Origin: a virus
Taxonomy: Duplodnaviria; Heunggongvirae; Uroviricota; Caudoviricetes
IMG/VR virus record: IMGVR_UViG_3300026224_000017
Strand: one strand, 5' to 3'
Length of the DNA stretch: 9,744 nucleotides
Part shown: positions 888-9,744 of the stretch, in pieces
How the letters are laid out: every line of letters begins with the position of its first letter
How positions within the stretch are numbered: the stretch's first letter is position 1
Position numbers and translations under genes: made by a program
Notes under the pieces: model-generated
What the model was told of the DNA's origin: nothing
Databases searched by the model: none
What the model saw: the letters and a program-made list of their open reading frames with translations, nothing else

Positions 888-1510
888 TTTTGAATCACCG
901 TTGTTGCATAGGAATAAATAAAAGGGAGTTTTACATATTTCTGGTCAATGGCATCTTTCAGAAAATAGCCTATACCATCGCCATACTCTGGTATCTGAAT
1001 AGAAAAAACGCTGTCCGATACTGTCACACTCACATCAAAAGTGTGCTGCAACGGCGGGTCTATTCCGTTTTTTCCATGAATGAACCGCGCCACACGTCGC
1101 TTTAACCAGTCAATGCAGAAATGCGAACCGTCAGCCTTATAAAAATTCCACGTTAATATTCGTTTGAAATAATCATCAGGTACATACGATGCCTGCCCCG
1201 GAACATAATTCCGCATTGCCGCATAAGGGATTGTATTGTATTCAATGGTATCGTATGCGCCGCGTGCAATAGCCTCCTCGGAAACCTGTAGTAAAGGCCT
1301 TTCAACGCCATAAATCCCGAGTGCAATCCAGTCCAGCAATTGCCCGGTTATTGATTCCGATGTCCAGCATGGCAATGCCAGATTGTTGAGTGAATCGAGG
1401 TATTCCTGAGCAATTTCATTGTATGCATCAAAGAACGCAACAACATTCGGATCATCTCTGTACTGCACAAATGGATAAGCAGGGAGAATTTTCTCAGTCA
1501 GATATTGCAT
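884..1510 (-). CDS. Baseplate wedge/tail protein, P2 gpI / Mu gp48-like (DUF2313-type), ~208 aa
   Basis: The six-frame ORF is 884-1618, but its first ATG would overlap the upstream gene by 125 nt. The internal ATG at 1510 (MQYLTEKILPAYPF...) has an AGGT about 8 nt upstream and overlaps the J-like stop by only 17 nt. Size, N-terminal pattern and position after J fit the I/gp48 family. Its stop overlaps the fiber start. Confidence 0.55.
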   Translation of the reverse strand: MQYLTEKILPAYPFVQYRDDPNVVAFFDAYNEIAQEYLDSLNNLALPCWTSESITGQLLDWIALGIYGVERPLLQVSEEAIARGAYDTIEYNTIPYAAMRNYVPGQASYVPDDYFKRILTWNFYKADGSHFCIDWLKRRVARFIHGKNGIDPPLQHTFDVSVTVSDSVFSIQIPEYGDGIGYFLKDAIDQKYVKLPFIYSYATTVIQK

Positions 1511-2720
1511 ACTTGTTGACCTGAACCTGTGATGCCACCGTTGAAAAATAGGAATAGGTATCGCCATAAACCAGGCTTGTGTCTTTCGCCGGAAGAACAA
1601 TATGGCCGTTAATACCAATGCTCACACTGATTGTTGAGATCAACGTCGCATCAACCAGCAACCTGACGGAACTGGTAAAAATATCCTGGATACGCAGAAG
1701 ATTTATCGGGTGTCCGACTTCAATTGAATTGATGTAATCAGCAACGTTTTGCTGCACAGCCATAGCAATACCCGCCGGATCAACATAATCATCAGACACC
1801 GTGTTCCAGGTGATTAGCACCATGACGTTTTGTGATGACGGGATAACGAACGGCACCTGATAAACGTCCGGTGAAACGGTTATTGAAACCGTGCGTTTTT
1901 CCACTGCCGCACCGGATGGATTGCTAACATCGTTGGTCAGTTTCGAAATATCCGGTACAGATTTGTAAATCGCATAAGCCACATCATACGGATCACCGCC
2001 ACCAACAACCGCAACCCATTTCCCCAGCGACGACTGCCGGAAAGAAATCAGGTTTTCTCGCACACCGCTTACTGATTTGAGCATCGCTTTAAAGCAATCC
2101 GGTGTTCCCTGCACACCAAACATGCCGGACTCCATAACTTCGGCGCGATATGATGCCCATGTCTGCGCCTCCTGACCGGGCATACCTGCGGTAAGGTTCG
2201 TGCATTTTACAGGCTGGTCTTTGGGTACTGATGTAATGACCTGCGTTACAGTCCCTTCCGGTACAGCCCATGAGCCTGACGTTGTGGCCACACAGTAGAC
2301 TGGCTCAGTCTGCCCGCTTTCCGGTACCACCGTATCGCGGGAAACCGCATACTGGTAGTTACCATCTCCAACCACAAATCCTTTAGGGATACCAAACCCC
2401 GGCAACGCCTCAAACACCACGTATACCGCCGTATTTGTACTTAATCCCTTCTGTGCTCCATAAATGTTTCCGAGTTGCATCAGTAACGGAATATTTGCGC
2501 CGTATGGGCTTACGGAGTTAATAAGGTCCACCCGCGCCTGGTCTATTAATGCCAGCGCCCCGACTGCCGTGCTGGCAAGGTCTGTAATAAGTCCCGCAGG
2601 AAGGTTGGCTGTATATCCAGGTACTTTTTCAGCAACTCTGGTGATAAGATTTGCGAGCAAATCATTGGGTGGCGTAGGCTGCGCACCCGCACTGGTCATA
2701 GTAATTGGTATTTCTGACAT
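1494..2720 (-). CDS. Baseplate J-like protein (P2 gpJ / Mu gp47 / T4 gp6 family), 408 aa
   Basis: 408-aa ORF. The N-terminal third (NDLLANLITRVAEKVPGY ... ANIPLLMQLGNIYGAQKG ... PGFGIPKGFVVGDG) follows the conserved pattern of baseplate J family proteins. It is followed by an I-like gene and a fiber gene. No Shine-Dalgarno is visible upstream of the ATG at 2720. Confidence 0.65.
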   Translation of the reverse strand: MSEIPITMTSAGAQPTPPNDLLANLITRVAEKVPGYTANLPAGLITDLASTAVGALALIDQARVDLINSVSPYGANIPLLMQLGNIYGAQKGLSTNTAVYVVFEALPGFGIPKGFVVGDGNYQYAVSRDTVVPESGQTEPVYCVATTSGSWAVPEGTVTQVITSVPKDQPVKCTNLTAGMPGQEAQTWASYRAEVMESGMFGVQGTPDCFKAMLKSVSGVRENLISFRQSSLGKWVAVVGGGDPYDVAYAIYKSVPDISKLTNDVSNPSGAAVEKRTVSITVSPDVYQVPFVIPSSQNVMVLITWNTVSDDYVDPAGIAMAVQQNVADYINSIEVGHPINLLRIQDIFTSSVRLLVDATLISTISVSIGINGHIVLPAKDTSLVYGDTYSYFSTVASQVQVNKYAISD

Positions 2721-2757
2721 ATTTATTTATCACTTGAATACATTATAAGGAGATATA

Positions 2758-3234
2758 ATGCGGTTCTATTTCAACAAAAAAGGTCTTTCTGGTATTTCTG
2801 TATCAAGCGGAAGGAGTAGTGGTGGCTGTGGAACATTAATTGGAGTTGTCTTTATACTTTATTTAATTGGCCATTTTTCATCACCTTCCGATGAAGATAT
2901 TAAAAATGAATCATCATCTTATAAGACAGCAGTCGTTAAAAGCGACAAAATAATTTCCGAAATCTGCGATCAGTTTAGCACTGATGATTCCGCAAAAATA
3001 TTTTTTAATTCAAATCTAAACAAACATTGGTATAAAACAAAAGTTAAAGTAAATTCACTATCAGATCAAAGATTATCTGCGATTGATTTCAAAAATCCAG
3101 AATTAAAGTATGAAATAAGAATGTCTGATTCAAGACCATTAAGAGTAGGGGATATTATTTCCGTTGAATTTGTACCTACTGAATTCAGTAAGTATTCATG
3201 CGAAATCAGTGGCACAATAGGTAAGTACAAGTAA
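2758..3234 (+). CDS. Hypothetical membrane-anchored protein (single N-terminal transmembrane helix, ~120-aa C-terminal domain), 158 aa
   Basis: Strong RBS AAGGAG 5 nt before the ATG. A basic N-terminus is followed by a hydrophobic helix (TLIGVVFILYLIGHF) and then a K/S/D-rich domain. The gene is very AT-rich (sampled stretches about 20-35 percent GC) and ends 4 nt before an intrinsic terminator. No recognisable family by eye. Confidence 0.6.
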   Translation: MRFYFNKKGLSGISVSSGRSSGGCGTLIGVVFILYLIGHFSSPSDEDIKNESSSYKTAVVKSDKIISEICDQFSTDDSAKIFFNSNLNKHWYKTKVKVNSLSDQRLSAIDFKNPELKYEIRMSDSRPLRVGDIISVEFVPTEFSKYSCEISGTIGKYK

Positions 3235-3238
3235 CCTC

Positions 3239-3272
3239 AAAAAAAACAGCCCGCTGAACGCGGGCTGTTTTT
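3239..3272. terminator. Bidirectional rho-independent terminator shared by convergent genes 2758-3234 and 3271-3660
   Basis: A-run 3239-3246, 8-bp GC-rich stem cagcccgc (3247-3254) / gcgggctg (3260-3267), 5-nt loop, T-run 3268-3272. The A-run/T-run flanks make it functional in both orientations. Confidence 0.75.
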
Positions 3273-3660
3273 AATATACGCCACGAATAAGATCTTGGGT
3301 AAAAACATCACATCCTTCGCTACCTAATTGCAGTCTTTTCTTAAAGTACTCAATAATACCGTCATTATGAACGCCATTTTTGGAAATTTTTAACCACGTA
3401 TTGCTCCATTCTATACTTTGGAGTTTTGTTAAAGCCGCTTTTTCATTTCCTTCACTAACCAAGCGACACGATTCTGATAGTTGATCAGTTACAATCATTT
3501 CATTTCTCATATGCTGAAGCAATTGTCGCTGTTCTTCGCTTAAAGTAACATCTTGATTAGTAATGAGTCTTTCTGATTTTTCAATTGGCGTACCAATCGC
3601 ACACCAAGAGACGAATAAAATTGTAAATAAAGGGAGTGTAATTTTTATACTGACCGACAT
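3271..3660 (-). CDS. Hypothetical secreted/periplasmic protein with N-terminal signal sequence and two cysteines in the mature part, 129 aa
   Basis: ATG at 3660 is preceded by GAGG with a 5-nt spacer; the GTG at 3666 suggested by the ORF track sits inside that Shine-Dalgarno. The N-terminus MSVSIKITLPLFTILFVSWCAIG has n, h and c regions of a Sec signal peptide. AT-rich (about 33 percent GC in a sample). The stop overlaps the terminator T-run. Confidence 0.6.
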   Translation of the reverse strand: MSVSIKITLPLFTILFVSWCAIGTPIEKSERLITNQDVTLSEEQRQLLQHMRNEMIVTDQLSESCRLVSEGNEKAALTKLQSIEWSNTWLKISKNGVHNDGIIEYFKKRLQLGSEGCDVFTQDLIRGVY

Positions 3661-3689
3661 AATCACCTCATTATCAAATGTTCATGCGG

Positions 3690-3717
3690 ATTTTATCAAC
3701 GGTTTCCCTCTATTCAA
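3690..3717 (-). promoter_or_regulatory. Candidate sigma70 promoter for gene 3271-3660
   Basis: On the minus strand: -35 TTGAAT (3717-3712), 16-bp spacer, -10 TAAAAT (3695-3690). Predicted start near 3683, about 23 nt upstream of the ATG. Found by eye only. Confidence 0.35.
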
Positions 3718-3724
3718 ATCAGAC

Positions 3725-3752
3725 TTTACATCCATGAGCTATTGAGTATGAT
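3725..3752 (+). promoter_or_regulatory. Candidate sigma70 promoter for the antirepressor-like gene, back to back with the minus-strand promoter
   Basis: -35 TTTACA (3725-3730), 16-bp spacer, -10 TATGAT (3747-3752). The two -35 elements are 8 bp apart, a typical divergent promoter layout. Found by eye only. Confidence 0.35.
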
Positions 3753-3979
3753 TATGCGCATGAGGCGTCGAAACCTCTTTCACGCGGCCTAGACCAACCC
3801 CGTCAGTGTTGGATTTTTTATGCCTACAATTCAGTGATGGCACAATGTGCGGTCACATCCCCGATCAATGTCGGGAGGGCGACGAATACAACACCCGAAA
3901 GGGAAATAAGTCCGCGGTTTCGTGAAGCCGTTTCGAACCTCCTGGCACCACAATTTCGAAAAAATTTCACGAGGTTTCT

Positions 3980-4537
3980 ATGACCAGCCAATTAATTCCC
4001 GTATTCAACGGCATTGTTTCAAACGAAACTACCCTTCTCTGCAACGCTCGCGATCTGCACACCTTTCTCGAAGTAGGTAAACGCTTTGCTACTTGGATCA
4101 CCGAGCGAATCGGCGAGTATGAATTCATAGAAAATCAGGACTACATAGCTATTTCCCAAAAACGGGAAATAGGTCACGGACGAGGGAAAAAGGACTACCA
4201 CCTCACCCTGGACACCGCCAAAGAACTGGCAATGGTCGAGCGCAACGAAAAAGGCCGCCAGATCCGCCGATACTTCATCGAGTGCGAGAAGAAGCTGCGC
4301 GAGGATACCACCAGCACACAATCCCCTCTGAATGTTGACATCATCATGCGCGTCAGAAACGGCTCGGTTACCCACATTGAGCACCACAAATCAGGCTCAG
4401 TTATAACCACAGAATGGGCAATTCACTTACTACGCAAAAGTGGATGGATTGTCATGCCACGCGATGAACTTCTTAACACGCCACTGGCCCAACTGATGCC
4501 CGAAAATTTGACTCAAACCGGAACCTGCGTCCGGTAA
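3980..4537 (+). CDS. Phage antirepressor-like protein (AntA/AntB-type N-terminal domain), 185 aa
   Basis: GAGG 5 nt before the ATG. The N-terminus (LIPVFNG ... ARDLHTFLEVGKRFATWITERIGEYEFIENQDY) and central segment (LTLDTAKELAMVERNEKGRQIRRYFIECEKKL) match the pattern I associate with AntA/AntB antirepressor proteins. The C-terminal ~70 aa are not recognisable. Confidence 0.6.
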   Translation: MTSQLIPVFNGIVSNETTLLCNARDLHTFLEVGKRFATWITERIGEYEFIENQDYIAISQKREIGHGRGKKDYHLTLDTAKELAMVERNEKGRQIRRYFIECEKKLREDTTSTQSPLNVDIIMRVRNGSVTHIEHHKSGSVITTEWAIHLLRKSGWIVMPRDELLNTPLAQLMPENLTQTGTCVR

Positions 4538-4860
4538 CTGGTCCCATTAAAAAACACAACATCGATGTTATAGGTGGGGTTCTCTGCCCCATCTACCTTT
4601 GAAATTGCCAGCGATGCAAAATACCCGGCAAACTGTTGCTGAACCATGTTCACATAGTAGTCCGGGTAAATTTGCTGCACGATGCACTGCTGCGCTGGAA
4701 TGCCGTAATTCGCGTAAAACGGCGACTCCCCCAACCCCAGCTTTAACGTCTGAATGAGCGTCGTCAGCCAGCCGTAGGAGAAATCACCGCTGGCGTCAGA
4801 TTCTACAGCAACCCATTTTTTGTTGCCGTTCGCGTCGGTGACGCGGCCCCATGTTCTCAT
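4513..4860 (-). CDS. Baseplate wedge protein, gp25 / P2 gpW-like, 115 aa
   Basis: Contains GESPFYANYG, which fits the G-x-x-P-F-x-x-x-[FY]-G core of gp25/W proteins (compare T4 gp25 GSRPFDPEFG). Size matches P2 gpW (115 aa). It lies between the spike and J genes. Its ATG is 3 nt after the stop of the preceding small ORF. Confidence 0.5.
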   Translation of the reverse strand: MRTWGRVTDANGNKKWVAVESDASGDFSYGWLTTLIQTLKLGLGESPFYANYGIPAQQCIVQQIYPDYYVNMVQQQFAGYFASLAISKVDGAENPTYNIDVVFFNGTSYRTQVPV

Positions 4861-4863
4861 GCG

Positions 4864-5028
4864 TCAACCTTTCAAGTAAATTAGGGTACCGGTAGCCAGA
4901 GCGGTACAAATGATCCACGCTACTGGAGTCAGAATATGCCGAATACCCTGACATACTGCGATTATTCTCGCAGCCTTATCAGCTCCTTGTGGGGTTGTCT
5001 CAGCCTTAAGAATCAGTTCGCTATCCAT
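4864..5028 (-). CDS. Hypothetical small protein with C-terminal transmembrane helix, 54 aa
   Basis: Translation verified by hand: MDSELILKAETTPQGADKAARIIAVCQGIRHILTPVAWIICTALATGTLIYLKG. Its ATG overlaps the stop of the upstream small ORF (ATGGATAG), and its TGA is 3 nt before the W-like ATG. Not in the ORF track, presumably because it is under the length cutoff. Confidence 0.35.
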   Translation of the reverse strand: MDSELILKAETTPQGADKAARIIAVCQGIRHILTPVAWIICTALATGTLIYLKG

Positions 5029-5188
5029 TTAGAACCTTTATGATCTCTGCGATTCCCGGAAGCGATTTAGCAACTGCAAACCCTCCGATAACTATAAGAA
5101 CTGCATAAAACATTCTTCTCAGAACCGGACTTCTTTCGAGCAATTTTAGAGCTTCCACAATCCAGTCTCCTCCGCTAAAATTAATCAC
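5021..5188 (-). CDS. Hypothetical small membrane peptide (single hydrophobic helix), 55 aa from GTG or 30 aa from the internal ATG
   Basis: GTG at 5188 is preceded by GGAGG (5199-5195) with a 6-nt spacer. Translation: VINFSGGDWIVEALKLLERSPVLRRMFYAVLIVIGGFAVAKSLPGIAEIIKVLNG. It lies downstream of the hairpin at 5244-5275 and is coupled to the next ORF. Confidence 0.35.
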   Translation of the reverse strand: MINFSGGDWIVEALKLLERSPVLRRMFYAVLIVIGGFAVAKSLPGIAEIIKVLNG

Positions 5189-5243
5189 GGAAGACCTCCA
5201 AACATACGTAATTATCCCTTGCCTTATTCAAGGTCAGAAACAG

Positions 5244-5275
5244 AAAGCCCCGACTGTTTGCCCAGTCGGGGCTTT
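5244..5275. terminator. Strong GC-rich stem-loop (terminator- or attenuator-like) just downstream of the spike gene
   Basis: 13-bp perfect inverted repeat aaagccccgactg (5244-5256) / cagtcggggcttt (5263-5275) with a 6-nt loop. Flanking sequence is moderately T-rich on both strands. It sits about 38 nt after the stop of the 5314-6027 gene. Confidence 0.5.
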
Positions 5276-5313
5276 CGCTTTATGGATAGAATTTAAAGTG
5301 AAATGAACCGGTA

Positions 5314-6027
5314 TTAACCCGGATTTGGTTTCTTTGACGTGATCGTGCTGTTGCCGCTTTGAACCCCAGTCACATCGTGGCTGTGACCGCTGGCGCTGAC
5401 ACCTTTTATCATCGCGTCGTTTTGCACAGTAAGCGGGCCAATCAGCGAAGCGGTTGTATCCTTCATCTGGGCTTTGTCCTGGACGATCGGTCCGTTGAGG
5501 TGAATTTTCCCGTTCAGGAAAATATCTTCGGCCTCGAGGTAAACAGCTTTCGACTTTTGCCTGATTTCTTCCGGTGCCACCGTTACCGAGCTACTGCCGT
5601 CCTCTGTTTTGAGGATCGCGCCATCCGGACCGTACAAAACGATCTTTTGCGGATCTTCGTCGGACCAGTCCTTGTTTGCCAGTGGCACGAAAAACAGTGG
5701 AGTGAGCGACATCGAGTAAGAGAGCGTCGCCATACCGGTTCCCAATCCGGACACACCGCGCAGGGATACATCAGCGGCAATTGTTACTCCTCGATCGCCC
5801 GGCTGTATCGGGTAACGAATATACGGGAATGTGGCGACAGGGATTGTTATCTGCGGAAAGTTGATCCCCTCCGGCAGCATATCAAACTGAACTGTCACTA
5901 TCTGCCCGCTGACACCGACAACATGGCAGGGCAATTCACGACCTTTAAGCTCGGCTTGCTGGTTACCAGAACTGGTCATCATCTCCGACAGCGTTCGGAG
6001 AAACGGTAATTTTTGAGCGTTTGACAT
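5314..6027 (-). CDS. Baseplate spike protein, P2 gpV / Mu gp45-like, 237 aa
   Basis: Size and position match. The C-terminal region has a His-containing apex-like motif (GHSHDVTGVQSG) and a Gly/Ser/Thr-rich beta-type sequence, as in gpV-type spikes. Its start overlaps the stop of the upstream hub-position gene. Confidence 0.6.
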   Translation of the reverse strand: MSNAQKLPFLRTLSEMMTSSGNQQAELKGRELPCHVVGVSGQIVTVQFDMLPEGINFPQITIPVATFPYIRYPIQPGDRGVTIAADVSLRGVSGLGTGMATLSYSMSLTPLFFVPLANKDWSDEDPQKIVLYGPDGAILKTEDGSSSVTVAPEEIRQKSKAVYLEAEDIFLNGKIHLNGPIVQDKAQMKDTTASLIGPLTVQNDAMIKGVSASGHSHDVTGVQSGNSTITSKKPNPG

Positions 6028-7968: not shown

Positions 7969-9441
7969 TTACCCCGGTATTTGTTGCGTTCCGGCGAGTT
8001 GTGCCAGTATGTCGGAACCCGGCGATTGTCGCACCTGAAGCTCAATTATTGCGCGGGCATTTTTGCCAGCACCCTGAAGATTATCTCTGGCATTTCTTAG
8101 CTGATTCATAATACCAGGGTGTTGATCCAGGGCTCCCTGAATCTGAGGCAATAATTTAATTAAATATTTTACAGTCTCCATTCTCAAACTTAGATTTCCA
8201 TCTCTATCAATACGACCTCCGTTATATGCCGTAAGCATTTTTGCCACATCGCCTTTATAACGCCGATTCAGATCATTTAAAAAGCGGCCAGCCGCAAGAG
8301 TGGATTTATTTGGGTCATAAACATCATCACCCACCAGACCATACTGTTTTGCGGTGCTATCCCAGAATTGCCACAACCCCTTAGCGAATCTACCTTTTTC
8401 ATCAGGAGTTCCTCTTGCCAGAGGATTCCACGAAGATTCAACTTCTGCGATAGCTGACATCATATTTTTAGGAAGTCGATAAGTATTATTGGCTTGCTCT
8501 ACAAAGTTCTGAATATTTCTCTTTAAATCATTAGGCATACGGTAATTTTTATATACATCATCCTGTTTATAAAACTCACCCGTATACTGATTTGTCATCG
8601 GGTTTGCTCCCGGCAACGCACCACCGAGATATTTATTTCCAAATGCCGCAAGAACTGGATCTGCCTGTTCAGCACCAACTCCGGTTCCGGGGAGATATTT
8701 ATCTTCCCCACCGATCCATTTGATAGCTGACCATATTGCTTTTGCAATCCGGCTCACCGCCAGAGAAAAATCGTCAAGATCATTTTTAAATTGTTCGCTA
8801 TTCAGCCACTTACCAAGTTTCTCCAGCCCTTCGCCAGCCTCAGCGAGAATTTTCTGAAAATTTCCACCATTCAGAAAACCTTCAATATTGGATGTCAGCC
8901 CATCAGATGCACCTGTGATTAGTGGGTTATATCTGGCGAGAGCTGCATACCAGGAATTTGATATTCTGTTTCCATTTACCATCAGGTTACTCACCGTATC
9001 CTGATAACCTGACTGCATAGCTGGCGTGAGGTAAGCACCGAGCAACCTAGTATTTGATGCAAATTTCTCGTTCAGTTGGGGGATCTTGTCCAGATTCGCT
9101 TCCACCTGGTTAGTTGTCGCGACATCAACAAATCCAAGCCCTTGTCCGTTGAGAATCCCCTGAGTAAGTCCTGAACCTTTATATTGCTTAACGAGAGATG
9201 CAAGCGCGCTCATAAGTTTGGGCAGATTCTTTGCTGCACCATCTCGAGGATCAATTCCAAGACTGACCAGACCAGCATAGTTTGGATCATTTGGATTTTT
9301 CTGTGCGTTCGCCAGATGCTGAACCAGTTCTTCTGTGCCAGAAAAATATGGCGAATAGGTGGCACGTGCGGCCTGCATCTGTGCGGTTTCCATACCCAGC
9401 CCCTGAGCCACGCTGTATTGCGCTGCAACCTTGCTCGCCAT
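7969..9441 (-). CDS. Tail-associated protein with lytic transglycosylase (SLT) domain, probably tape measure or tail lysin; at least 490 aa
   Basis: Clear SLT catalytic region AIAEVESSWNP ... GLWQFWDSTA ... TAYNGG (approximately 8200-8480), verified by back-translation. The first ATG is at 9441, but the same frame stays open upstream to 9651 (about 70 more codons) with no canonical start codon. Confidence 0.7.
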   Translation of the reverse strand: MASKVAAQYSVAQGLGMETAQMQAARATYSPYFSGTEELVQHLANAQKNPNDPNYAGLVSLGIDPRDGAAKNLPKLMSALASLVKQYKGSGLTQGILNGQGLGFVDVATTNQVEANLDKIPQLNEKFASNTRLLGAYLTPAMQSGYQDTVSNLMVNGNRISNSWYAALARYNPLITGASDGLTSNIEGFLNGGNFQKILAEAGEGLEKLGKWLNSEQFKNDLDDFSLAVSRIAKAIWSAIKWIGGEDKYLPGTGVGAEQADPVLAAFGNKYLGGALPGANPMTNQYTGEFYKQDDVYKNYRMPNDLKRNIQNFVEQANNTYRLPKNMMSAIAEVESSWNPLARGTPDEKGRFAKGLWQFWDSTAKQYGLVGDDVYDPNKSTLAAGRFLNDLNRRYKGDVAKMLTAYNGGRIDRDGNLSLRMETVKYLIKLLPQIQGALDQHPGIMNQLRNARDNLQGAGKNARAIIELQVRQSPGSDILAQLAGTQQIPG

Positions 9442-9666
9442 ATATCCGTACCCGAAAGCACCGACCGAACCAAGCGCCGCAATTTTGCTCCCCCAGGATA
9501 CAGTCGTTTTAAACAGCGTTTTCAGTCGTGAATTGGTCGTTTTAAGCGTTGAATTGATCTGCTTGTAAGTTTTCAGCGTCCCCTGAGCGTTTTTACCCAG
9601 ACTACTGAGATACTTATCAAATGAACCGCCCCGGGTTTCCTGGAGAGTGTTTTATCTGTGAACTCA

Positions 9667-9744
9667 GGCTGCCAGATCAGTATTTCCGATGGAAGCATAA
9701 TAAGCTTTTTCTGCTTCTGCCGGAGGAATATGGCCCAGCCTTTC
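9667..9744 (-). CDS. C-terminal end of an upstream tail-module gene (partial; start lies beyond the right edge)
   Basis: Open frame from the window edge ending ...AEKAYYASIGNTDLAA at TGA (9666-9664), followed in the same frame by a second stop TAA (9654-9652). Identity unknown; tape measure N-part or tail chaperone are the candidates. Confidence 0.35.

What the first reader, a model, noticed from the sequence alone, without database searches (positions are those of the whole stretch)
3271..3660. Secreted two-cysteine protein next to a phage that carries a tail-borne lytic transglycosylase
The product has a Sec-type signal peptide and two cysteines in the mature region (SESCRLV and SEGCDVF), consistent with a disulfide-stabilised periplasmic protein. 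Small periplasmic proteins encoded by prophages include inhibitors of cell-wall hydrolases and receptor-blocking exclusion proteins. Because the same element encodes an SLT-domain tail protein (7969-9441), an inhibitor or immunity role against incoming phage lysins is an attractive but unproven idea. It is convergent with gene 2758-3234 and shares its terminator, which suggests the two are a unit.
Basis: inference. Interest (0 to 1): 0.5.

Follow-up and report, generated by a model that had tools for sequence, protein, structure and literature searches.

The report
Exported two-cysteine prophage accessory protein
This is a real but rare prophage accessory gene for a small exported helical protein with an invariant cysteine pair; it sits in a swap-in slot of the tail baseplate operon, and its function is unknown, with blocking of other phages at the cell envelope the most likely guess.

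Summary
Window 3271-3660 (-) encodes a 129-aa protein (RefSeq WP_000116545.1, annotated "hypothetical") with an N-terminal export signal and two cysteines, C65 and C117. Both cysteines are invariant in relatives down to 21% identity. A convergent 158-aa gene and a strong hairpin lie next to it, and the phage carries an SLT-domain tape-measure-position protein.

New findings:
- The family is tiny and matches nothing in Pfam, PHROGs, NCBIfam or PADLOC.
- Some relatives have a canonical lipobox and others a plain signal peptide. This allele has Trp at -1, so the lipobox pattern fails.
- A confident AlphaFold model (pLDDT >87 over residues 40-129) is a four-helix domain. It has no significant match in PDB or BFVD, including T4 Spackle and lysozyme inhibitors.
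- The gene is accessory cargo. The slot between the 115-aa baseplate gene and baseplate J is empty in some phages and holds about 31 alternative cargo families, roughly half of them exported. This family fills 5 of 84 surveyed slots.
- The protein evolves 3-10 times faster than the tail proteins (omega 0.22).
- It and the 158-aa gene each occur without the other, and the hairpin belongs to the phage backbone. They are not a unit.

SLT inhibition is untested. Envelope-level exclusion of incoming phage is the best guess, at about 0.35.

The parts
3271..3660 (-). CDS of the 129-aa exported two-cysteine protein (called X here), stop codon included
   Evidence: dN/dS 0.22
3592..3660 (-). Export signal, residues 1-23. 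K6, then hydrophobic core ITLPLFTILFVSWCAIG. C20 (codon 3601-3603) aligns with the lipobox cysteine of relatives. W19 (3604-3606) breaks the lipobox. AIG|TP is a possible signal-peptidase I site.
3274..3543 (-). Four-helix domain, residues 40-129. Helices at 42-69, 73-81, 99-110 and 114-126, with a conserved loop at 82-98 (IEWSNTWLKISKNGV). pLDDT is above 87.
   Evidence: conservation
3466..3468 (-). Codon of invariant Cys65, at the end of helix 1
3310..3312 (-). Codon of invariant Cys117, at the start of helix 4
3690..3717 (-). Sigma-70-like promoter TTGAAT-16-(TGa)TAAAAT upstream of X. Both hexamers and the TG are identical in the Salmonella locus.
   Evidence: The count of promoter-like sites is not above the shuffle expectation, so support comes from conservation only.
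3242..3272 (.). GC-rich 13-bp hairpin with A/T runs on both sides. It is a bidirectional intrinsic terminator between X and the 158-aa gene. A hairpin in the equivalent position precedes baseplate J in related phages, including some with empty slots.
2758..3234 (+). Neighbouring cargo gene for a 158-aa protein with an N-in membrane anchor (GTLIGVVFILYLIGHF) and an outward-facing domain holding two conserved cysteines. It is separable from X.
3980..4537 (+). AntA/AntB antirepressor gene, a further cargo gene of the same slot
4513..4860 (-). 115-aa baseplate gene (phrog_7986), the upstream anchor of the variable slot
1494..2720 (-). Baseplate J gene, the downstream anchor of the variable slot
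7969..9621 (-). 3' part of the SLT-domain gene at the tape-measure position (662 aa when intact), cut by an IS3-family element at 9621/9622

Best explanation
X is a moron-type accessory gene of a temperate myovirus with a Mu-like tail (Rac-SA53 group).

Anatomy. It encodes a small protein that is exported across the inner membrane. Some relatives are lipid-anchored. This allele is probably released by signal peptidase I or stays tethered. About 15 residues of linker precede a roughly 90-residue four-helix domain, which an invariant C65-C117 pair probably locks as a disulfide.

Role. It is not a virion part. It is one of about 31 interchangeable cargo families in a hypervariable slot between the 115-aa baseplate gene and baseplate J. 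It is probably expressed from its own conserved promoter in the lysogen, and by read-through with the late tail genes.

Most likely function. It acts in the periplasm as an exclusion factor against incoming phages, at a step after adsorption. That step is the crossing of the cell wall and periplasm by the tail tip, the tape-measure/SLT protein or the ejected DNA conduit. Receptor masking is less likely.

Shown here: the gene is real, it has export signals, the cysteines are invariant, it is accessory, its protein sequence evolves fast, and its upstream region is conserved.

Inferred: the disulfide, periplasmic residence, expression in the lysogen, the exclusion function and the target.
For: - Export signals occur in every full-length family member, as lipobox or AxA types.
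- Only C65, I83 and C117 are invariant over 16 sequences down to 21% identity.
- The model is confident and helical, and the two cysteines lie on helices 1 and 4.
- Accessory status: the slot is empty (15-59 bp) in 6 related phages, under 300 bp in 7 of 84 surveyed loci, and holds 31 cargo clusters in all. X fills 5 of the 84. Rac-SA53 and pPE4 lack X. The J gene is in 89 of 5,426 complete E. coli genomes, X in 1.
- About half of the cargo clusters have signal peptides, lipoboxes or membrane anchors, so the slot collects envelope proteins.
- GC content drops to 0.31-0.38 over 2600-3800, against 0.45-0.54 in the flanks.
- X evolves fast. Against Salmonella, dS is 1.09 (J 1.08, SLT 1.12), but dN is 0.238 against 0.015-0.084 in the tail proteins. 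In distant loci X is 28-40% identical where tail proteins are 40-85%.
- X is 100% identical across prophages whose tail fibres differ strongly, which argues against a blocker matched to the fibre's receptor.
- The promoter-like element is conserved between E. coli and Salmonella.
- Precedents from the literature: HK97 gp15, a moron inside a tail operon that blocks genome entry depending on tail features (PMC3594210); T4 Spackle, a periplasmic disulfide-bonded helical bundle that inhibits the gp5 tail lysozyme (PMC7677548); and TP-J34 Ltp, a lipoprotein that targets the tape measure (Bebeacua et al. 2013, as cited in PMC3952083).
Against: - There is no homology or fold similarity to any characterised exclusion protein or hydrolase inhibitor.
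- PADLOC finds nothing.
- There are no expression or phenotype data.
- An omega of 0.22 also fits merely relaxed constraint, and dS is close to saturation.
- In the minimal arrangements (L019, L095) only about 20-45 bp of intergenic sequence lie upstream of the gene. Expression there may be late only, which suits a role during lytic growth as well as one in the lysogen.
- One relative (L015) lies outside any tail module.
- My export heuristic% of the control tail proteins exported, so the enrichment is only semi-quantitative.
Confidence: 0.35

Rival explanations
1. Specific inhibitor of the phage's SLT (lytic transglycosylase) domain. This is the first reader's idea and an analogue of T4 Spackle: X binds the SLT domain of the tape-measure-position protein of incoming related phages and stops local cell-wall digestion.
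For: X is periplasmic or lipid-anchored, helical, and has a single conserved cysteine pair, like Spackle (PMC7677548). Every phage that carries X in a tail module has the SLT protein. The mature protein is mildly acidic (pI 5.4). Another cargo family of the same slot has a sub-threshold LprI (lysozyme inhibitor) hit, E 0.003.
Confidence: 0.12
2. Receptor- or channel-masking lipoprotein of the Llp/Cor type. X binds the periplasmic face of an outer-membrane receptor and locks it against phage, and possibly colicin, use.
For: Five relatives have canonical lipoboxes with Ala at +2, which in E. coli implies outer-membrane sorting (sorting rule from my own knowledge). The gene lies close to the tail-fibre genes, as llp lies next to the T5 receptor-binding gene (PMC9586334).
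Against: The window allele fails the lipobox pattern, and at least seven relatives are plain secreted proteins. X is identical across prophages with very different fibres. No sequence or fold relation to solved structures was found.
Confidence: 0.12
3. Host-benefit moron unrelated to phage conflict. X would be an envelope protein that improves stress tolerance, colonisation or serum resistance of the lysogen, as lambda Bor and Lom do.
For: It is exported and has moron-like composition and a promoter. The hosts are gut E. coli and Salmonella, many of them porcine ETEC. The moron literature lists many such functions (PMC3594210).
Against: X is very rare (1 of 5,426 complete E. coli genomes). It diverges fast and is confined almost entirely to one slot of one phage lineage. 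This pattern fits phage-phage conflict better than a general host benefit.
Confidence: 0.2
4. Two-component envelope system made of X plus the 158-aa membrane protein, as the reader's 'unit' proposes.
For: The two are always adjacent and convergent in the E. coli/Salmonella clade. Both face the periplasm, each has two conserved cysteines, and both diverge fast (60% and 69% identity).
Against: X occurs without the 158-aa gene in L018, L019, L020, L022, L095, L103 and L109. The 158-aa gene occurs without X in L111-L114. The hairpin between them is a backbone feature.
Confidence: 0.07
5. Orphan periplasmic immunity protein against a wall-targeting bacteriocin or T6SS effector, or a periplasmic regulator of lysis timing like the T4 RI antiholin.
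For: Small exported helical proteins with disulfides are typical of both classes (my own knowledge). In the minimal arrangements the gene would be transcribed with late genes.
Against: No cognate toxin gene or holin is adjacent in any locus. There is no fold match to solved immunity proteins.
Confidence: 0.08

Closest known systems
T4 Spackle (Sp, gp61.3), periplasmic inhibitor of the gp5 tail lysozyme
   Same: Small exported phage protein with a compact helical domain and one disulfide-capable cysteine pair. The two cysteines are 52 residues apart in both proteins, which may be coincidence. The encoding phage carries a wall-degrading enzyme on its tail (PMC7677548).
HK97 gp15 (YebO-like), the prototype moron inside a tail operon; superinfection exclusion at genome entry
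   Same: An accessory gene inserted among tail genes. Its product is targeted to the envelope, and exclusion depends on the incoming phage's tail rather than on its receptor (PMC3594210). Both show deviating composition and independent transcription signals.
   Different: gp15 is a small inner-membrane protein, whereas X is a secreted or lipid-anchored helical domain. No homology: X has no Pfam hit at all. In topology, the 158-aa neighbour resembles gp15 more than X does.
TP-J34 Ltp, a lipoprotein that blocks DNA injection by binding the tape-measure protein
   Same: Prophage-encoded, lipid-anchored in part of the X family, with helical extracytoplasmic domains. A plausible shared target class is the tape-measure protein (Bebeacua et al. 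2013, as cited in PMC3952083).
   Different: Ltp comes from a Gram-positive host and has a different fold (tandem helix-turn-helix-like repeats, from my own knowledge). There is no similarity to any solved structure.
T5 Llp and phi80/N15 Cor, receptor-blocking outer-membrane lipoproteins
   Same: Small exported phage proteins with cysteines, encoded near receptor-binding genes (PMC9586334).
   Different: The window allele lacks a valid lipobox. X does not co-vary with the tail fibres. There is no sequence or fold relation.
Peptidoglycan-hydrolase inhibitor families Ivy, MliC/PliC, PliG/PliI and LprI
   Same: Periplasmic or lipoprotein location with conserved cysteines.

Membership tests
T4 Spackle family | Detectable sequence homology to Sp/gp61.3 | tested here: not met
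   hhalign of the X profile against T4 Sp gives probability 12.4%, aligned only over the signal peptides. tblastn of X against 50,697 phage records finds no match.
T4 Spackle family | Same helical-bundle fold with the disulfide in the equivalent place | tested here: not met
T4 Spackle family | Binds and inhibits a tail-borne peptidoglycan hydrolase | not testable with these tools
Bacterial lipoproteins (PROSITE PS51257 lipobox) | [LIVMFWSTAG](2)-[LIVMFYSTAGCQ]-[AGS]-C after an uncharged stretch | tested here: not met
   The window allele reads L-F-V-S-W-C, and Trp at -1 breaks the pattern. Relatives P0009, P0010, P0011, P0012 and P0023 match it.
Sec-exported proteins with a cleavable signal peptide | Basic n-region, hydrophobic h-region, small residues at -3 and -1 | tested here: inconclusive
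   K6, a 17-residue hydrophobic core and AIG|TP fit by rule-based inspection. No trained predictor such as SignalP was available, and no experiment was done.
Moron (independent accessory transcription unit in a prophage) | Present or absent between otherwise collinear phage genomes | tested here: met
   The slot is empty in L023, L025, L088, L090, L091 and L106. Other cargo fills about 70 loci, and X fills 5 of 84.
Moron (independent accessory transcription unit in a prophage) | Base composition that deviates from its surroundings | tested here: met
   GC is 0.31-0.38 over 2600-3800 against 0.45-0.54 in the flanks.
Moron (independent accessory transcription unit in a prophage) | Own promoter and terminator | tested here: inconclusive
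   The promoter-like TTGAAT-16-TGaTAAAAT is conserved in Salmonella, but site counts are not above shuffles. The terminator is real but belongs to the backbone junction, since it is present in empty slots.
Llp/Cor receptor-blocking lipoproteins | Co-variation or linkage with the phage's receptor-binding protein | tested here: not met
   X is 100% identical in loci whose fibre proteins are 54-100% identical over partial alignments and differ in length (440-503 aa and 604-1044 aa).
Known lysozyme/transglycosylase inhibitors (Ivy, MliC/PliC, LprI) | Pfam domain match | tested here: not met
   X has no Pfam family at E <= 0.01 and none in NCBIfam at E <= 0.1.
Known anti-phage defence systems (PADLOC) | Match to a PADLOC model | tested here: not met
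   No hit at E <= 0.1 for X, the 158-aa protein, rac61 or rac62.
Baseplate structural proteins | Conserved presence in all phages sharing the module; no export signal | tested here: not met
   X is absent from 79 of 84 surveyed modules and from Rac-SA53. An export signal is present.

The most novel reading that the evidence does not exclude
X founds a new-fold family of periplasmic inhibitors aimed at the SLT-bearing tape-measure or tail-tip complex of incoming myoviruses. That would make it a Spackle-like solution evolved independently for lytic transglycosylases. The 115-aa/baseplate-J junction of this phage lineage, with its resident terminator, would then be a dedicated reservoir of envelope-acting anti-phage proteins that no current defence catalogue covers.
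Probability: 0.12. Interest if true: 0.6.

Novelty: new variant of a known kind. Interest (0 to 1): 0.3.

Why it matters
Envelope-level exclusion proteins are short, fast-evolving and invisible to homology-based defence finders, and only a handful (Spackle, Imm, Llp, Cor, gp15, SieA, Ltp) have known mechanisms. This locus offers two things. The first is an uncharacterised exported family with a confident structural model and no detectable fold relative. The second is a mapped hotspot inside a baseplate operon in which about half of the 31 or so alternative cargo families are exported or membrane proteins. If even some of these block phage entry, the slot would be a practical hunting ground for new entry-blocking mechanisms, including possible inhibitors of tail-borne lytic transglycosylases. 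If not, X remains an ordinary hypothetical moron protein.

Tried and rejected
- Family scans of X and the 158-aa protein against Pfam, PHROGs, NCBIfam and PADLOC found nothing. The only hit was a weak phrog_8815 match (unknown function) for the 158-aa protein.
- A profile search against PDB sequences returned only spurious designed or TPR helical repeats.
- The first AlphaFold model, built from 8 near-identical sequences, was poor (pLDDT 64.7), and its Foldseek search was uninformative. It was redone with 16 diverse sequences.
- hhalign against T4 Spackle was negative.
- I first read X as a structural baseplate protein, because distant homologs sit in the same position and on the same strand as the tail genes. 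I rejected this after finding empty slots and the export signals.
- I first took the hairpin as X's own moron terminator. I rejected this after finding an equivalent hairpin in empty slots.
- The terminator scan tool missed the hairpin. Folding confirmed it.
- The LprI lead for other slot cargo was sub-threshold in Pfam, and PDB sequence searches found nothing.
- tblastn against 50,697 phage records found no isolated phage carrying X.
- Literature searches for a characterised homolog, or for periplasmic inhibitors of phage transglycosylases, found none.

Full report
**1. What is there**

Window 3271-3660 on the minus strand is an ORF of 129 codons. It starts at ATG 3660, with GAGG five bases upstream. 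It is 100% identical in DNA to a gene annotated "hypothetical protein" (WP_000116545.1) in a prophage of E. coli ETEC1716. The identical protein is on record in 144 blocks of the assembly collection.

The gene is real. Against its Salmonella ortholog, synonymous divergence (dS 1.09) equals that of the flanking tail genes (J 1.08, SLT 1.12), and dN/dS is 0.22. A full HMMER scan of 1.8 billion representatives found only 14 proteins at E <= 0.001. The word-indexed searches found 10-15 clusters. None carries a Pfam domain or an informative name. Pfam, PHROGs, NCBIfam and PADLOC give no hit.

**2. The protein**

In the alignment of 16 members down to 21% identity, only three columns are invariant: C65, I83 and C117.

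The N-termini are all export signals, but of two kinds. Five members match the lipobox pattern PS51257 (for example FLLSGC|ASS in Salmonella, the closest diverged relative at 60% identity). At least seven have AxA-type signal-peptidase I sites (AFA|QA, VSA|QD, VQA|VE, AMA|ID and others). The window allele reads FVSWC|AIG. The cysteine that is lipidated in relatives is kept, but Trp at -1 breaks the lipobox, and AIG|TP fits the -3/-1 rule. The caveats are that the family switches between lipid-anchored and soluble forms, and that the processing of this allele is unresolved.

With the diverse alignment, AlphaFold gives pLDDT above 87 for residues 40-129. There are four helices (42-69, 73-81, 99-110, 114-126) and a conserved loop at 82-98. 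C65 lies at the end of helix 1 and C117 at the start of helix 4. A disulfide between them is inferred from invariance and export, not shown.

**3. Context: a cargo slot, not a structural gene and not a two-gene unit**

The surrounding genes form a Mu-like tail module, listed here in the order of transcription on the minus strand:
- an SLT-domain protein at the tape-measure position (662 aa when intact);
- proteins of 222, 88, 335 (hub), 237 and 115 aa;
- the slot;
- baseplate J (408 aa), a 208-aa protein and the tail fibres.

Distant X homologs in Serratia and in metagenomic contigs sit at exactly the same place, between the 115-aa gene and J, and on the tail-gene strand. At first that suggested a structural role.

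I then surveyed 87 loci retrieved through baseplate J alone. Both anchor genes were found in 84 of them, and the result is different:
- The slot is 15-59 bp and empty in 6 loci (under 300 bp in 7).
- It holds a 391-aa HSDR_N/endonuclease-like gene in 22 loci.
- Antirepressor genes are present in 27 loci.
- In all there are 31 cargo clusters.
- X is present in 5 of the 84 loci.

Rac-SA53 and phage pPE4 are about 95% identical to the window in the flanks, yet they carry two other secreted proteins (rac62 and rac61) instead of X. Among complete E. coli genomes, the J gene occurs in 89 of 5,426 and X in 1.

By a crude hydrophobicity rule, 17 of the 31 cargo clusters are exported or membrane proteins. 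By eye, about 14 have clean signal peptides, lipoboxes or anchors. The rule also flags 20% of control tail proteins, so the enrichment is only semi-quantitative. GC content falls to 0.31-0.38 over 2600-3800, against 0.45-0.54 outside.

**4. The 158-aa neighbour and the hairpin**

The convergent gene 2758-3234 encodes a protein with an N-in membrane anchor and an outward-facing domain carrying two conserved cysteines. It accompanies X in every E. coli and Salmonella locus of that clade. The association is not obligatory, however:
- X occurs alone in L019 and L095.
- X occurs with an overlapping upstream cytoplasmic gene (the S119/S213 family) in L018, L020 and L103.
- X occurs with a different 219-aa gene in L109.
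- A 79%-identical 158-aa gene occurs in Salmonella prophages L111-L114 with no X anywhere in the locus. There it is followed by a 200-aa multi-pass membrane protein.

The hairpin at 3242-3272 is a strong bidirectional terminator (dG -22 and -24.7 kcal/mol, z about -6). An equivalent GC-rich hairpin with a T-run lies directly upstream of J in all seven diverged X loci. It also lies there in empty-slot loci L025, L088, L090 and L091 and after the 391-aa cargo. It is therefore a feature of the phage backbone junction. It does not show that the two genes form a unit.

**5. Evolutionary behaviour**

Between the window and the Salmonella locus L004, tail proteins are 88-97% identical, X is 60% and the 158-aa protein is 69%. 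In the distant loci, tail proteins are 40-85% identical and X is 28-40%.

With comparable dS, dN of X is 0.238, against 0.015-0.084 for the tail proteins. Omega is 0.22 for X and 0.02-0.07 for the tail proteins. X is thus the fastest-evolving protein of the region while still under purifying selection. One caveat is that dS is near saturation.

X is 100% identical in prophages whose fibre proteins differ greatly in length and sequence. This argues against a role matched to the fibre's receptor.

The 170 bases upstream of X are about 92% identical between E. coli and Salmonella. They include a TTGAAT-16-TGaTAAAAT promoter-like element at 3717-3690. This fits independent expression but does not prove it.

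**6. Most likely mechanism and rivals**

I commit to the following, with confidence about 0.35. X is an envelope-acting exclusion factor that works in the periplasm against incoming phages at a step after adsorption.

This rests on five points: export, the disulfide-type domain, accessory status in a slot that collects envelope proteins, fast protein evolution, and independence from the fibres. It also rests on precedents. HK97 gp15 is a moron inside a tail operon whose exclusion depends on the incoming phage's tail (PMC3594210). T4 Spackle is a periplasmic disulfide-bonded helical bundle that inhibits the gp5 lysozyme (PMC7677548). TP-J34 Ltp is a lipoprotein that targets the tape measure (cited in PMC3952083).

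Nothing here supports it directly, and most phages with the same SLT protein lack X.

Other rivals and their confidences:
- a host-benefit moron unrelated to phages (0.2);
- Llp/Cor-like receptor masking (0.12);
- orphan immunity against wall-targeting toxins, or a regulator of lysis timing (0.08);
- an obligate pair with the 158-aa protein (0.07, largely refuted).

**7. Novelty and verdict**

The kind of feature is familiar: a prophage moron encoding a small exported protein. The protein family and its fold are undescribed, and the slot itself appears uncharted. Literature searches for a characterised homolog, for Rac-SA53 and for periplasmic inhibitors of phage transglycosylases turned up nothing relevant.

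I rate it a new variant of a known kind with modest interest (0.3). The attractive inhibitor idea remains speculation, and the "unit" claim is wrong.

Noticed in passing
window 9622-9744 (junction at 9621/9622): Homology to all related prophages stops at 9621. The last 123 bases are the end of an IS3-family insertion sequence, found in 4,090 of 5,426 E. coli genomes. It interrupts the SLT/tape-measure-position gene, which is 662 aa in relatives, so the prophage in this window is probably defective.
   Followed up: yes
window 3870-3954 (+): Rfam match to sRNA-Xcc1 (RF02221), 69.7 bits against a gathering score of 53, in the leader just upstream of the antirepressor gene. The stretch 3762-4322 is also conserved at about 77% in many Stx-converting phages upstream of and into their ant genes. 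It may be a structured leader or sRNA that controls ant.
   Followed up: partly
window 3242-3272; L025, L088, L090, L091 around 5950-6000; L018-L022, L095, L103, L109 upstream of J: A GC-rich hairpin with a T-run sits immediately upstream of baseplate J in this phage lineage, even when the slot is empty. This is an intrinsic terminator in the middle of the baseplate operon. Cargo on the tail-gene strand accumulates upstream of it. It implies antitermination of late transcription and may define the insertion hotspot.
   Followed up: partly
L040-L075 (22 loci), slot between the 115-aa gene and J, e.g. L040:4785-5960: The commonest cargo of the slot is a 391-aa cytoplasmic protein with type I restriction HSDR_N domains (Pfam E 5.6e-14; phrog_4225 'endonuclease', E 1e-148). 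PADLOC has no hit for it. It is a candidate single-gene nuclease defence.
   Followed up: partly
L034:5212-5958 (also L036, L038, L039, L069): Another cargo family of the slot is a 248-258-aa secreted protein. Its N-terminal cysteine-rich region gives a sub-threshold Pfam hit to LprI (lysozyme inhibitor), E 0.003 and 18.2 bits against a cut-off of 22. No PDB sequence match was found.
   Followed up: partly
L018:7367-8008, L020:7658-8017, L103 (120-aa ORF upstream of X): In three diverged loci a cytoplasmic-looking gene (119-213 aa, with a shared N-terminal domain) overlaps the start of the X homolog by 8-17 bases, which suggests translational coupling. It has no informative family hit.
   Followed up: partly
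window 4864-5313: There is a second variable spot, between the 237-aa baseplate gene and the 115-aa gene. This window has two small ORFs there (54 and 55 aa, one of them hydrophobic). L004, L006 and L008 carry a 182-aa Phage_pRha gene, and ETEC1716 has a shorter gap.
   Followed up: no
L111:5492-6094 and L085:5372-5980: A 200-202-aa multi-pass membrane protein (phrog_12486, unknown function) with a C-terminal two-cysteine domain follows the 158-aa gene in Salmonella prophages that lack X. This is a further envelope cargo of the slot.
   Followed up: no
L015:8001-8396 (assembly GCA_017875465.1): One lipoprotein-type X homolog (P0011, 31% identity) lies outside any tail module. It sits in an island with a phage integrase, IS elements and a LuxR/GerE-type regulator.
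   Followed up: no
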